IMG/VR virus record: IMGVR_UViG_2529292977_000006 | Reading direction: 5' to 3' (one strand) | Length of the DNA stretch: 4,250 bases | From: a virus | Lineage: Duplodnaviria > Heunggongvirae > Uroviricota > Caudoviricetes | Part shown: positions 3,143 to 4,250 of the stretch, one piece after another | Layout: every line of letters starts with the position of its first letter | How positions within the stretch are numbered: the first letter of the stretch is position 1 | Notes under the pieces: model-generated | Told to the model about the DNA's origin: nothing | Databases searched by the model: none | What the model saw: only the letters and a program-made list of their open reading frames with translations | Position numbers and translations under genes: made by a program

Positions 3143-3700
3143 ATGACCACTATTACCAAAGATCGACTGCTGACAATCCAGCATTGGCGCGAAACATACG
3201 GACCGGGTAGCAACGTTGTGCTTCCAGCAGAAGAAGCGGAAGAGCTGGCACGGATTGCGCTGGCATCACTGGCAGCAGTATCGGATGAACGAGCAGCCTA
3301 TGAATTATTTATGGAGAAGCGTTTCGGAGAATCTGTAGATCGCCGCAGAGCAAAAAATGGCGATAGAGATTACATGGTATGGGATATGGCGCTTGGCTGG
3401 ATTATCTGGTGTCACCGCGCCGCCATGCTTCAGGCTGGAAACTTTCGGGAAAATAAGGGTTCGTCAACCAATAATTTTCGGATAATCTCGGAAACGTCAA
3501 CCAACTCTCCGGCAATCCCTGATGAGGTGTTGTCCGCAATCCTGAAGGTCGCCAGGCTTCGTGCAGATTTCGATGCTTCTGAAGTGGACAGGCGAGGTAT
3601 CGGTAGTTGTCTGGATGAGGCCGAGCAAGAACTTATCGTTACCATTAACGAATACGCCAGTCAGATCGCAGTAGAAGCGACACAGGGGGAGAACCAATGA
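3143..3700 (+). CDS. Hypothetical protein (185 aa); N-terminus paralogous to the 2206..2523 product
   Basis: ATG 3143 lies 2 nt after the upstream stop, with AAGGTGA (3129-3135) upstream; stop TGA 3698-3700. Shares the N-terminal pattern MT(T)ITK-x-R...YG-x-G...AL with the gene at 2206. Confidence 0.6.
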   Translation: MTTITKDRLLTIQHWRETYGPGSNVVLPAEEAEELARIALASLAAVSDERAAYELFMEKRFGESVDRRRAKNGDRDYMVWDMALGWIIWCHRAAMLQAGNFRENKGSSTNNFRIISETSTNSPAIPDEVLSAILKVARLRADFDASEVDRRGIGSCLDEAEQELIVTINEYASQIAVEATQGENQ

Positions 3701-3774
3701 GCCGGCCAGATGCATTTGCAGGCGTTGCTATAGCTATTGCTTTTCTAGTATATGTTATTTGTCGGTGGGGGTAA
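3697..3774 (+). CDS. Candidate 25-aa hydrophobic micropeptide (MSRPDAFAGVAIAIAFLVYVICRWG)
   Basis: ATG 3697 overlaps the upstream stop (ATGA), with GGGGGA (3685-3690) at 6 nt; stop TAA 3772-3774. One short hydrophobic helix. Too short for the ORF track; the call rests only on coupling geometry, the SD and hydrophobicity. Confidence 0.3.
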   Translation: MSRPDAFAGVAIAIAFLVYVICRWG

Positions 3775-3809
3775 AAACGTTCGCCGGGATTCACACCAAG
3801 GGAGGGAAT

Positions 3810-3914
3810 ATGTCGGATGATATTTCACTGGTAATGGAAGGCGCTCTGGCTGTTATTGCTGTTGTGGGTGTTTACTGCCTGGTTGTGTTTTTGATGGAGC
3901 GCCTGGGGAACTGA
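3810..3914 (+). CDS. Candidate 34-aa small membrane peptide (MSDDISLVMEGALAVIAVVGVYCLVVFLMERLGN)
   Basis: ATG 3810 is preceded by a strong SD, AAGGGAGGG (3798-3806); stop TGA 3912-3914. One TM-like helix flanked by acidic N-terminal and charged C-terminal residues. Not in the ORF track because of its length. Confidence 0.45.
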   Translation: MSDDISLVMEGALAVIAVVGVYCLVVFLMERLGN

Positions 3915-3924
3915 ATTCATTCCG

Positions 3925-3940
3925 TATGGGAATTCCCATA
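3925..3940. promoter_or_regulatory. 16-bp perfect palindrome TATGGGAATTCCCATA (candidate operator or weak hairpin)
   Basis: The sequence equals its own reverse complement. It lies 11 nt after the stop of the 34-aa ORF and about 15 nt upstream of the candidate hok promoter -35. There is no following T-tract, so a classical intrinsic terminator is unlikely. Confidence 0.3.
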
Positions 3941-3954
3941 TCGGGCAAAACGGT

Positions 3955-3982
3955 TTGCTGTAAAGCGAGAGTTAAGTAGAAT
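3955..3982 (+). promoter_or_regulatory. Candidate sigma70 promoter for the hok transcript
   Basis: -35 TTGCTG (3955-3960), 16-bp spacer, -10 TAGAAT (3977-3982). This would give a leader of about 170 nt before the hok ATG, in line with the long structured leaders of hok mRNAs. Confidence 0.3.
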
Positions 3983-4000
3983 TGCTGCGGGTGCTTGAGG

Positions 4001-4036
4001 CTGTCTGCCTCGGGCATGCCACCGTAAGGCAGACAG
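4001..4036 (+). other. Stable hairpin in the presumed hok mRNA leader (10-bp perfect stem, 16-nt loop)
   Basis: CTGTCTGCCT (4001-4010) is the exact reverse complement of AGGCAGACAG (4027-4036). It is not followed by a U-tract. Confidence 0.35.
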
Positions 4037-4157
4037 AGAAAAGCCCCAGTTAACATTACGCGTCCTGCAAGACGCTTAACATTAATCTGAGGCCCAATCT
4101 ATGCTTCACAAACGTAGGTTAGCCTCTTACGCGCCGAAAGGCAAGGAGAAGCAGGTT

Positions 4158-4250
4158 ATGAAGCAGCAAAAGGCGATGTTAATCGCCCTGATCGTCATCT
4201 GTTTAACCGTCATAGTGACGGCACTGGTAACGAGGAAAGACCTCTGCGAG
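4158..4250 (+). CDS. hok: Hok-family type I toxin (HokD/RelF-like), 3'-truncated by the window edge
   Basis: ATG 4158 is preceded by AAGGAGAAG (4142-4150). The translation MKQQKAMLIALIVICLTVIVTALVTRKDLCE matches the N-terminus of E. coli HokD/RelF as I remember it, including the TM helix and the conserved Cys. An in-frame ATG at 4101 with its own SD lies upstream. Confidence 0.75.
   Translation, partial: MKQQKAMLIALIVICLTVIVTALVTRKDLCE

What the first reader, a model, noticed from the sequence alone, without database searches (positions are those of the whole stretch)
3925..3940. 16-bp perfect palindrome TATGGGAATTCCCATA between the micropeptide ORF and the hok promoter
A perfect 16-bp dyad is unlikely by chance in a 4-kb window. 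With no U-tract after it, it looks more like a dimeric protein-binding site than a terminator. It lies between the upstream operon and the candidate hok promoter -35 at 3955. It could be an operator that couples hok expression to a phage or host regulator, possibly one of the HTH proteins encoded upstream, or a recombination or insulation site at a module boundary.
Basis: seen in the sequence. Interest (0 to 1): 0.4.

Follow-up and report, generated by a model that had tools for sequence, protein, structure and literature searches.

The report
Fossil of a KilA-N gene palindrome
The 16-bp palindrome upstream of the hok toxin gene is real, but it is most likely not a hok operator: it is the surviving core of a broken KilA-N gene, and intact KilA-N genes across bacteria and phages keep a 22-26 bp perfect palindrome at this spot through compensatory mutations, for a reason not yet known.

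Summary
TATGGGAATTCCCATA lies at 3925-3940. In most sibling prophages it is a perfect 22-26 bp palindrome; the window allele has lost one base.

It is not part of the hok/sok cassette, because most hok loci lack it. It has no U-tract. No second copy or half-site occurs in 12.6 kb of the prophage early region.

The minus strand reads S-D-M-G-I-P-I-S-E-L-I-Q, the conserved motif of KilA-N domain proteins. In sibling prophages an intact KilA-N gene sits divergently about 530 nt upstream of hok and carries the same 22-mer as codons. A DNA profile of KilA-N genes matches window 3909-3950 on the minus strand. The side facing away from hok is homologous to KilA-N codons; the hok side is not.

The larger finding concerns KilA-N genes themselves. 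In genes sampled without reference to the motif, from many phyla, about half carry a perfect palindrome of at least 22 bp over the x-G-I-P-x codons. Synonymous sites are frozen there, and all 10 stem pairs show compensatory double changes that alter the protein. No Rfam family and no paper I found describes this.

Verdict: a gene fossil at a mosaic joint. The operator reading is unsupported. The force that keeps the palindrome (a selected hairpin or template-switch correction) is unresolved.

The parts
3925..3940 (.). Perfect 16-bp palindrome TATGGGAATTCCCATA, the reported feature. On the minus strand it reads (D)-M-G-I-P-I.
   Evidence: The codon reading follows from the KilA-N ORFs.
3922..3944 (.). 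Extended dyad CCG-TATGGGAATTCCCATA-T-CGG. This is the ancestral 22-26 bp perfect palindrome with a 1-nt deletion, which leaves one bulged T.
   Evidence: Alleles. Fold of -12.8 kcal/mol with a 6+4 bp stem and a bulge.
3909..3950 (-). Fossil of a KilA-N domain gene, with remnant codons S-D-M-G-I-P-I-S-E-L-I-Q. It is antisense to hok and truncated at the hok-proximal edge of the palindrome.
   Evidence: nhmmer with a DNA profile of 105 KilA-N genes scores 16.4 bits (E = 3.5e-6) in the minus orientation against 9.9 bits in the plus orientation. Sister contexts score 20.7-31.1 bits. The distal flank is 18-20 of 30 identical to the best KilA-N allele, p <= 0.002. An intact KilA-N gene occupies the same slot in L237.
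3912..3919 (.). Second small dyad TGAATTCA, which overlaps the stop codon of the 34-aa ORF. It derives from the KilA-N codons L-I-Q (TTAATTCA) by one substitution.
   Evidence: Read from the sequence; alignments.
3810..3914 (+). 34-aa hydrophobic ORF (RefSeq WP_001278460.1) with a strong Shine-Dalgarno sequence (GGGAGGG). Its last codons and stop are built from the antisense strand of the KilA-N fossil.
   Evidence: No Pfam or PHROG family matches.
3955..3982 (+). Candidate hok promoter: -35 TTGCTG at 3955-3960 and -10 TAGAAT at 3977-3982. It is conserved in hok loci with and without the palindrome.
   Evidence: Read from the sequence; conservation. The position is set relative to the 5' end of the Rfam sok/hok leader model at 3989. 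No promoter assay was done.
3989..4163 (+). hok mRNA leader and Sok target region. The hok ATG is at 4158 and the CDS runs off the window.
   Evidence: Rfam RF01794, 114.9 bits, E = 1.4e-26. Annotated hokD in RefSeq.

Best explanation
The palindrome is the core of a roughly 42-nt fossil of a KilA-N domain gene.

In sibling lambdoid prophages an intact KilA-N gene lies in this slot. It is transcribed away from hok. Its codons C-GAT-ATG-GGA-ATT-CCC-ATA-TCG (D-M-G-I-P-I-S) form the same perfect 22-bp palindrome.

In the lineage of this window the 5' half of that gene was lost right up to the hok-side edge of the palindrome. The 3' part was replaced by other cargo: a 34-aa ORF here, the paa adhesin gene or an ORF6N gene elsewhere.

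The dyad symmetry is therefore inherited, not built for hok. KilA-N genes from many bacterial phyla, phages and giant viruses keep a 22-26 bp perfect palindrome centred on GGAATTCC over their x-G-I-P-x codons, with frozen synonymous sites and compensatory double substitutions.

Shown here: the origin of the fossil, the conservation and covariation of the palindrome in KilA-N genes, and the fact that hok loci can lack it.

Inferred: in this window the element has no dedicated role in hok regulation. It is a hairpin-prone relic that marks a mosaic joint. Its near-perfect symmetry persists through the same force that keeps it in the gene. I think that force is most likely intra-strand template-switch correction of quasi-palindromes, possibly together with selection for a DNA-level hairpin or dyad.
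For: Origin
- The E. coli prophage gene WP_000200358.1 is a KilA-N protein (Pfam PF04383, E = 4.3e-27). It carries the 22-mer as codons. It lies divergently, with the palindrome 526-534 nt from the hok -10 region, in 7 loci.
- It occupies the same slot as the window element. A homologue of the 25-aa ORF (window 3697-3774) and a product WP_000137958.1, a close accession neighbour of the window's WP_000137954.1, lie upstream, although BLAST between the two DNA regions found only short matches.
- The flank distal to hok matches KilA-N codons after the motif. Against the L237 allele: context C 21-22 of 30 nt (Smith-Waterman p < 0.0005) and context B 10 of 12 and 16 of 30 (p about 0.007). Against the best allele: 18-20 of 30, p <= 0.002.
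- The KilA-N DNA profile scores higher in the antisense orientation in every context: 16.4-31.1 bits against 9.9-16.8.

Not part of hok
- Hok-only loci share homology only from about 3947 or 3960-3970.
- The Rfam hok/sok model starts at 3989.

Not an operator
-.

Palindrome maintained in KilA-N genes
- The sample was chosen with peptide patterns outside the motif.
- 48 of 74 genes have a perfect palindrome of at least 16 bp there, and 37 of 74 have at least 22 bp.
- Palindromes of at least 16 bp number 52 at the motif against 8 elsewhere in 244 kb.
- Codon entropy is 0.30-0.64 in the motif against 0.75-1.0 at other conserved residues.
- 91.5% of cells pair, against 77% in shuffles and 29-48% with slid partners. 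All 10 pairs show changes on both sides, in 98 cells, and 0 of 500 shuffles reach this.
- Variants such as GGTCCATGGGAATTCCCATGGACC (S-M-G-I-P-M-D) and CCGATGCGGGAATTCCCGCATCGG (D-A-G-I-P-A-S) change the protein to keep the palindrome.

Template switching
- Template-switch correction of imperfect inverted repeats is an established model in proteobacteria (PMC5941160).
Against: - The element survives, nearly perfect, in three different upstream contexts, with junctions within a few bases of its arms. About 20 short non-coding copies exist in unrelated phages, where only the palindrome plus or minus a few bases matches KilA-N. Random decay of a gene would seldom leave just this piece. That hints at retention for a function, or at autonomous spread.
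- All 123 loci that carry the 34-aa ORF also carry the palindrome, so no clean loss is documented in that context.
- The position, -49 to -64 from the hok start, is where activators or alpha-CTD contacts act.
- No transcript or binding data could be consulted.
- A neutral template-switch origin for the covariation is not demonstrated here. The centre (GGA ATT) is more fixed than pure pairing would require.
Confidence: 0.65

Rival explanations
1. It is an autonomous cis-acting DNA or RNA element. The palindrome would be a functional hairpin or dyad that KilA-N genes carry internally and that also works on its own in intergenic DNA. It could be a target of KilA-N-type DNA-binding proteins in trans, or a structure-specific recombination or regulatory site. 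On this reading it was kept upstream of hok because it still works.
For: - Strong constraint and covariation at the nucleotide level inside KilA-N genes.
- The core 16-mer gave more than 120 hits in IMG/VR, with a modal palindrome length of 22 bp. A composition-matched control palindrome gave 31 hits with near-chance extension.
- About 20 non-coding copies of 22-32 bp exist in unrelated phages, with only the palindrome matching KilA-N.
- One copy (L026) is followed by a T-run after a Bro-N-like gene. Another (L102) lies about 130-185 nt upstream of a KilA-N gene.
- Junctions cluster at the palindrome edges in the hok contexts.
Against: - Only 1 of 20 non-coding copies has a KilA-N gene within the fetched flanks.
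- The arms vary freely in sequence, which argues against a fixed sequence-specific binding protein.
- G.T mismatches (11) are not favoured over A.C (24) on the sense strand, so there is no sense-RNA wobble signature.
- No function is known for any copy.
- Template switching can mimic selection (PMC5941160).
Confidence: 0.17
2. It is an RNA hairpin at the 3' end of the upstream transcripts (the 34-aa ORF, paa or the ORF6N gene). It would act as a 3' stabiliser, or as a partial transcription barrier that insulates the hok promoter and the exact 5' end of hok mRNA from read-through.
For: - In all three contexts the upstream gene is co-oriented with hok and ends 10-130 nt before the palindrome.
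- Stable hairpins are predicted, at -12.8 to -21 kcal/mol with z-scores of -3.5 to -6.2.
- The two singleton arm variants among the alleles are C-to-T changes that keep G.U pairing on the plus strand, and the loop position varies (A, C or G).
- From established knowledge of hok/sok: hok regulation depends on pairing between the exact 5' and 3' ends of the mRNA.
Against: - There is no U-tract, and no terminator-like site was called.
- The paa context already has a canonical terminator about 100 nt upstream.
- Most hok loci do without the hairpin.
- The window allele has weakened the stem by a deletion.
- The sequence is explained by descent from KilA-N.
Confidence: 0.1
3. It is an operator for a dimeric regulator that controls the hok promoter. 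This is the first reader's main idea, with the upstream HTH proteins or a host factor as the binding protein.
For: - A perfect dyad centred 56.5 nt upstream of the hok mRNA start.
- The DUF1627 protein, which has weak winged-helix-like matches, is encoded upstream in 70 of 86 palindrome-bearing loci.
Against: - No second site or half-site in 12.6 kb of the early region.
- The HTH gene at 1329-1646 is present in only 20 of 86 loci. DUF1627 is also present in 3 of 4 loci without a proximal palindrome.
- The distance to the promoter shifts by 18 nt, which is not a whole number of helical turns, in the ORF6N context.
- hok loci generally lack it.
- The dyad and its flank are KilA-N coding sequence.
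Confidence: 0.07
4. It is a chance palindrome with no history or meaning.
For: A perfect palindrome of 16 bp or more is expected in 6.3% of random sequences of this length.
Against: - It is 22-26 bp and perfect in relatives.
- It matches KilA-N genes beyond the dyad.
- The control palindrome behaves differently.
Confidence: 0.01

Closest known systems
Gene remnants at mosaic joints of lambdoid prophages (moron replacement in the nin region)
   Same: A short piece of a former gene lies between modules that are swapped among related prophages. The upstream cargo differs (34-aa ORF, paa, ORF6N gene, intact KilA-N), while hok and the genes beyond it stay the same.
   Different: The surviving piece is centred on a perfect palindrome, and the junctions lie within a few bases of its arms. 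This was not described in any paper I could find.
Perfect inverted repeats kept by template-switch correction (Lavi et al. 2018, PMC5941160); coding palindromes in Nematomorpha mitochondria (Mikhailov et al. 2019, PMC6649704)
   Same: A perfect inverted repeat lies inside coding sequence or at conserved orthologous positions. Both arms are constrained together, and a change in one arm is matched in the other.
   Different: Here a single 22-26 bp palindrome sits on the most conserved motif of one DNA-binding domain family and is kept across bacterial phyla, phages and giant viruses. It also persists after the gene is gone. Template switching was not tested here.
parS inside parB/spo0J: a palindromic cis site embedded in the gene of a DNA-binding protein (from my own knowledge)
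   Same: A perfect palindrome of about 16 bp or more is conserved within the coding sequence of a DNA-binding protein's own gene.
   Different: parS is conserved in sequence and is bound by ParB. The KilA-N palindrome keeps complementarity while its arms change, and no binding protein is known.
Operators of dimeric HTH regulators
   Same: A perfect dyad just upstream of a -35 hexamer.
   Different: There are no repeated sites, no consistently linked regulator gene, the spacing varies, and the element is absent from most hok promoters.
Intrinsic terminators and REP-type 3' stabiliser hairpins
   Same: A stable stem-loop shortly after a stop codon.
   Different: There is no U-tract. It is not a dispersed multi-copy family in the host genome; it is found upstream of hok or inside KilA-N genes only.

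Membership tests
hok/sok type I toxin-antitoxin locus (as a cis element of the cassette) | The element lies within the conserved cassette, that is the hok mRNA with its tac/fbi, mok and Sok target elements, and is present in hok loci generally. | tested here: not met
   The Rfam RF01794 match starts at 3989. Hok-only loci share homology only from about 3947 or 3960-3970. There are 10,926 hok places against 2,340 palindrome places in E. coli.
Intrinsic (Rho-independent) terminator | A G+C-rich stem-loop followed directly by a U-rich tract. | tested here: not met
   No terminator-like site in 3600-4250 on either strand. The tails are TCGGGCAAAAC on the plus strand and CGGAATGAATTC on the minus strand.
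Operator of a dimeric transcription factor | The dyad recurs, or has half-sites, at other regulated promoters of the same element. | tested here: not met
   One match with up to 3 mismatches in 12.6 kb. Half-sites number 2, both within the palindrome itself, against 2.95 expected by chance.
Operator of a dimeric transcription factor | Fixed phasing relative to the promoter, and a co-inherited regulator gene. | tested here: not met
   The distance from the palindrome centre to the -10 hexamer is 44-47 nt in 127 loci but 63-64 nt in the ORF6N context. The HTH gene at 1329-1646 occurs in 20 of 86 loci.
Operator of a dimeric transcription factor | A protein binds the site and changes transcription. 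| not testable with these tools
   This needs EMSA or footprinting and reporter fusions.
KilA-N gene-internal palindrome (defined here) | A perfect or near-perfect dyad centred on GGAATTCC that reads x-G-I-P-x in one frame. | tested here: met
   The minus strand of 3922-3944 reads D-M-G-I-P-I. It is identical to the 22-mer in WP_000200358.1 apart from a 1-nt deletion.
KilA-N gene-internal palindrome (defined here) | Sequence outside the dyad is homologous to KilA-N coding sequence. | tested here: met
   nhmmer match to 3909-3950 on the minus strand, E = 3.5e-6, with orientation asymmetry. Sister alleles are 18-20 of 30 identical to the best KilA-N allele, p <= 0.002. This holds on the distal side only; the hok side shows no similarity.
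KilA-N gene-internal palindrome (defined here) | It lies within an intact KilA-N open reading frame. | tested here: not met
   No ORF spans it, and stop codons follow in the KilA-N frame. It is a fossil, not a gene.
Dispersed extragenic palindromes (REP/BIME, ERIC) | Many copies in unrelated intergenic regions of the host chromosome. | tested here: not met
   In E. coli the matches lie upstream of hok or inside KilA-N genes, with a median of 2 places per genome that has any. In IMG/VR, 130 of 132 enterobacterial-type non-coding copies are next to hok.

The most novel reading that the evidence does not exclude
The window's palindrome may be a stranded copy of an undescribed, deeply conserved nucleic-acid element. 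This would be a 22-26 bp hairpin or dyad embedded in the x-G-I-P-x codons of KilA-N domain genes, selected in its own right strongly enough to override the protein motif. It would also function or spread autonomously in the intergenic DNA of many phages, for example as a target of KilA-N-type proteins or as a structure-specific recombination site that creates mosaic joints such as the one next to hok.
Probability: 0.3. Interest if true: 0.85.

Novelty: new variant of a known kind. Interest (0 to 1): 0.55.

Why it matters
For hok/sok biology the result is mostly a correction. The dyad upstream of prophage hokD should not be read as a hok operator, because it is debris from a neighbouring gene.

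The wider point is about KilA-N, a very common but poorly understood DNA-binding domain of phages and large DNA viruses. It turns out to carry a perfect palindrome on its most conserved motif. Part of what looks like protein conservation (G-I-P and the covarying M/I, T/V, A/A and V/T neighbours) is dictated by DNA or RNA symmetry.

If the palindrome is selected, it points to an unknown cis function shared from enterobacterial prophages to giant viruses. If it is kept by template switching, it is one of the clearest natural cases of a mutational process shaping a conserved protein motif and leaving self-maintaining fossils at recombination joints. Either reading can be tested directly with recoded genes.

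Tried and rejected
- Phage repressor or Cro operator: no similar site anywhere between cI/cro and Q.
- Known host transcription-factor sites (CRP, FNR, LexA, Fis, DeoR, RcsB, IclR/AllR, HipB and others): compared from memory only, with no convincing match. None was tested with a tool.
- Known RNA family: Rfam finds only the hok/sok leader in the window. Nothing covers the hairpin in the intact KilA-N gene.
- PasA or other prophage sRNAs: PasA lies beyond Q, next to the esterase and holin genes, not here.
- The hokW-sokW paper says nothing about an upstream dyad.
- Literature search for the sequence itself gave only unrelated oligonucleotides. Searches combining KilA-N with palindrome or hairpin terms gave nothing relevant.
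- The 34-aa ORF as an antisense overprint of a longer KilA-N remnant: the KilA-N DNA profile finds nothing left of 3909, so only its last codons and its stop derive from the fossil.
- Non-coding copies as operators next to KilA-N genes: only 1 of 20 has a KilA-N gene within the fetched flanks.
- Sense-strand RNA structure in KilA-N mRNA: G.U-compatible mismatches (11) are not favoured over A.C (24), so this is not supported.
- Translated comparison of the hok leader with the KilA-N N-terminal half gave weak alignments driven by the DMGIPIS core. I judged them to be chance.
- A first attempt to scan genome contigs with the broader alignment failed because it had no sufficiently conserved stretch. 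It succeeded with a closer alignment.

Full report
**Observation**

The sequence TATGGGAATTCCCATA lies at 3925-3940, exactly as reported. It is the only perfect palindrome of 10 bp or more in the window.

Length alone is a weak argument. In 5,000 first-order-Markov random sequences of the same length, 6.3% contained a perfect palindrome of 16 bp or more.

The window is 100% identical to a lambdoid prophage of E. coli O157:H7. It covers the region between replication gene P and antiterminator Q.

The hok mRNA leader (Rfam RF01794, 114.9 bits) starts at 3989. The palindrome therefore spans -64 to -49 relative to that start. It ends 14 nt before the -35 hexamer (TTGCTG at 3955) and begins 10 nt after the stop of an annotated 34-aa ORF (3810-3914).

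**What relatives show**

I collected loci from IMG/VR by the end of the 34-aa ORF. The dominant allele (67 of 123 loci, plus minor variants) carries a perfect 22-bp palindrome, CGATATGGGAATTCCCATATCG. The window's allele (14+9+1 loci) has lost one A, which leaves 16 perfect bp plus CCG/CGG across a bulged T.

Variation is concentrated at one central position (A, C or G). The rest is two singleton C-to-T changes in the 3' arm.

The non-coding palindrome occurs upstream of hok in three different contexts:
- Context A: after the 34-aa ORF, as in the window.
- Context B: after the paa adhesin gene and its terminator. The palindrome is 24-26 bp.
- Context C: after an ORF6N-domain gene. The palindrome is 20-26 bp, with 18-19 extra nt between it and the hok promoter.

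Contexts A and B differ from C by an indel bounded by CGGG direct repeats (sequences).

Most hok loci have no palindrome. Their homology to the window starts at about 3947 or at 3960-3970. In complete E. coli genomes, hok-like matches occupy 10,926 places in 4,715 genomes. The palindrome region occupies 2,340 places in 909 genomes. So the element is not part of the hok/sok cassette. Conversely, 130 of 132 enterobacterial-type non-coding copies in IMG/VR are next to hok.

**Tests of the operator and terminator ideas**

- No terminator-like site is called, and neither strand has a U-tract.
- In 12.6 kb from the cI/cro region to beyond Q there is no second copy with up to 3 mismatches. Half-sites are not enriched: 2 were found, both within the palindrome itself, against 2.95 expected.
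- The distance from the palindrome centre to the -10 region is 44-47 nt in 127 loci and 63-64 nt in context C. The difference is not a whole number of helical turns.
- The HTH gene at 1329-1646 is found within 5 kb upstream in only 20 of 86 palindrome-plus-hok loci. DUF1627 is found in 70 of 86, but also in 3 of the 4 loci without a proximal palindrome that could be scored.
- No paper contains the sequence in a relevant context. The hokW-sokW study does not mention an upstream dyad.

**Where the sequence comes from**

Across 59 distinct contexts the palindrome was usually longer than 16 bp, with a mode of 22 bp and a maximum of 32 bp. A composition-matched control palindrome, TGGATGAATTCATCCA, gave only 31 hits, and its extension was close to chance.

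The reason for the excess is that ATG GGA ATT CCC ATA encodes M-G-I-P-I, the most conserved motif of KilA-N domain proteins.

An E. coli prophage KilA-N gene (WP_000200358.1) contains C-GAT-ATG-GGA-ATT-CCC-ATA-TCG. It lies divergently, with the palindrome 526-534 nt from the hok -10 region, in 7 loci. It occupies the same slot as the window's element.

The flank of the non-coding palindrome that faces away from hok is homologous to the KilA-N codons after the motif (S-E-L-I-Q-S-F-K-G-G):
- Against the L237 allele, context C is 21-22 of 30 nt identical (Smith-Waterman p < 0.0005). Context B is 10 of 12 and 16 of 30 identical (p about 0.007).
- Against the best of 91 alleles, identity is 18-20 of 30, p <= 0.002, in contexts A (the L002 allele), B and C. 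The ungapped test fails for the window allele itself, because its 1-nt deletion shifts the register.
- A DNA profile of 105 KilA-N genes matches window 3909-3950 on the minus strand at 16.4 bits (E = 3.5e-6), against 9.9 bits in the plus orientation. Contexts A, B and C score 20.7, 28.4 and 31.1 bits, always better in the antisense orientation.

The hok-side flank shows no KilA-N similarity. The gene's 5' half is therefore missing right up to the palindrome edge. Nothing left of 3909 matches KilA-N. The last codons and the stop of the 34-aa ORF are built on the antisense strand of the fossil.

**The unexpected part: the palindrome is maintained inside KilA-N genes**

I first looked at 33 distinct KilA-N genes from IMG/VR, 60-100% identical in protein to the E. 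coli one. Synonymous codon choice is free at conserved residues, with normalised entropy of 0.6-1.0. In the motif it is not: D is GAT in 30 of 30, P is CCC in 33 of 33, the second I is ATA in 29 of 29, the first I is ATT in 32 of 33, and G is only GGA or GGG.

Variants keep the dyad by changing both arms, and the protein with them:
- GGTCCATGGGAATTCCCATGGACC encodes S-M-G-I-P-M-D.
- CCGATGCGGGAATTCCCGCATCGG encodes D-A-G-I-P-A-S.

To avoid any selection on the motif, I then sampled one genome per species using peptide patterns outside it (DGY[IV]NAT.. and [QR]GTWVHP..). The genes come from Enterobacterales, Alpha- and Betaproteobacteria, Verrucomicrobiota, Bacillota, Bacteroidota, Chloroflexota and Spirochaetia, with local G+C content of 30-65%.
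- 48 of 74 genes have a perfect palindrome of at least 16 bp over the x-G-I-P-x codons, and 37 of 74 have at least 22 bp.
- Arm sequences differ widely (ATATGGG, AAACGGG, ATACCGG, ATATCGG, ACATGGG, TGGTCGG, ATGCCGG and others) and are always matched in the other arm.
- The neighbouring residues therefore covary: M..I, T..V, I..I, V..T, A..A.
- Perfect palindromes of at least 16 bp number 52 at the motif against 8 elsewhere in 244 kb of the same loci.
- Codon entropy is 0.30-0.64 in the motif against 0.75-1.0 elsewhere.

On 91 distinct 40-nt segments:
- 91.5% of cells form standard pairs, against 77.3% after shuffling partners and 29-48% after sliding them.
- All 10 stem pairs show changes on both sides, in 98 cells.
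- 0 of 500 shuffles reach any of these values.

Watson-Crick pairing holds for pairs 1-12 from the centre and then drops to background. Rfam has no family for this element, and I found no description in the literature.

**Which force maintains it is not settled**

In the stem, G.T mismatches (11) are not favoured over A.C (24) on the sense strand. The innermost N-H pair (GGA/ATT) is also constrained, although a 2-nt loop cannot form in a hairpin. Both points argue against a simple sense-strand RNA hairpin. They fit a DNA-level dyad or a strand-neutral process.

Template-switch correction of imperfect inverted repeats is a documented model in proteobacteria (PMC5941160). Coding palindromes under joint constraint are known in Nematomorpha mitochondria (PMC6649704). 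Such a process would copy a change from one arm to the other and would also keep a fossil perfect without selection.

Against a purely neutral view:
- The element overrides an otherwise invariant protein motif.
- About 20 short non-coding copies exist in unrelated phages, where only the dyad matches KilA-N.
- One copy is followed by a T-run after a Bro-N-like gene, and one lies in an iteron-like repeat region.
- In the hok contexts the junctions sit within a few bases of the arms.

**Conclusion for the finding**

The palindrome at 3925-3940 is real and non-random, but it was not built for hok. It is the core of a fossil KilA-N gene fragment (3909-3950, minus strand) at a mosaic joint of the prophage.

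The reading as an operator for hok or for the upstream HTH proteins finds no support in any test I could run.

My best estimate is that it has no dedicated regulatory role here (confidence about 0.65 for the whole statement, higher for the origin alone). The main alternative is that the dyad is an autonomous functional element inherited from KilA-N genes (about 0.17). A 3' hairpin or insulator role (about 0.10) and an operator role (about 0.07) come next. The experiments listed under next steps would separate these readings.

Noticed in passing
L240-L399 (KilA-N genes from IMG/VR and GTDB genomes); alignment A3: KilA-N domain genes from many bacterial phyla and phages carry a 22-26 bp perfect palindrome centred on GGAATTCC over their x-G-I-P-x codons. 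Synonymous sites are frozen there, and compensatory double changes alter the protein motif. Copies found earlier by the 16-mer scan (L013, L064) show it in giant-virus contigs too. It is not in Rfam, and I found no paper describing it.
   Followed up: yes
L006, L011, L018, L025, L026, L028, L043, L044, L046, L055, L060, L094, L095, L100, L102, L103 (IMG/VR): Short non-coding copies of the same palindrome (22-32 bp) occur in unrelated viral contigs with G+C content of 26-66%. They often lie just after a terminator or between genes. In L026 the palindrome is followed by a T-run after a Bro-N-like gene. In L018 it sits between direct repeats of GGCAACCAATGCGCGCA, next to a 754-aa gene. In L103 two GIP-type palindromes lie about 17 nt apart inside one long ORF.
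   Followed up: partly
window 3697-3774 and 3810-3914: Two small hydrophobic ORFs of 25 and 34 aa lie ahead of hok. The 25-aa ORF overlaps the stop of the upstream gene (ATGA). It has a diverged protein-level homologue in L237 (MTWPEAFTTVGIAMAVALVVYSICRWG), so it is probably a real small membrane protein. The 34-aa ORF has a strong Shine-Dalgarno sequence and no Pfam or PHROG family. Its codon variants are 7 synonymous against 8 non-synonymous, which is inconclusive.
   Followed up: partly
L047, L082, L135 (IMG/VR), equivalent to window about 4150: In three prophage loci a roughly 1.27-kb insertion, which by its size and position looks like an insertion sequence, interrupts the hok leader just upstream of the hok start codon. 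This recalls the IS-inactivated chromosomal hok loci of E. coli K-12 (the K-12 comparison is from my own knowledge). I did not identify the inserted element.
   Followed up: no
L359, L367, L368 (one Thalassobaculaceae MAG); L364, L366 (one Dehalococcoidia MAG): The same KilA-N gene occurs in two or three copies far apart in a single genome. This suggests that it travels on a multi-copy mobile element or on repeated prophages.
   Followed up: no
window 3989-4163: The Rfam 'sok' model matches on the plus strand and covers the hok mRNA leader. The hit therefore marks the hok 5' untranslated region and Sok target, not the orientation of the Sok RNA gene.
   Followed up: no
window 3747-3775, minus strand: A promoter-like site (TTTACC, 17-nt spacer, TATACT) points leftwards, antisense to the 25-aa ORF. 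It is a consensus match only.
   Followed up: no
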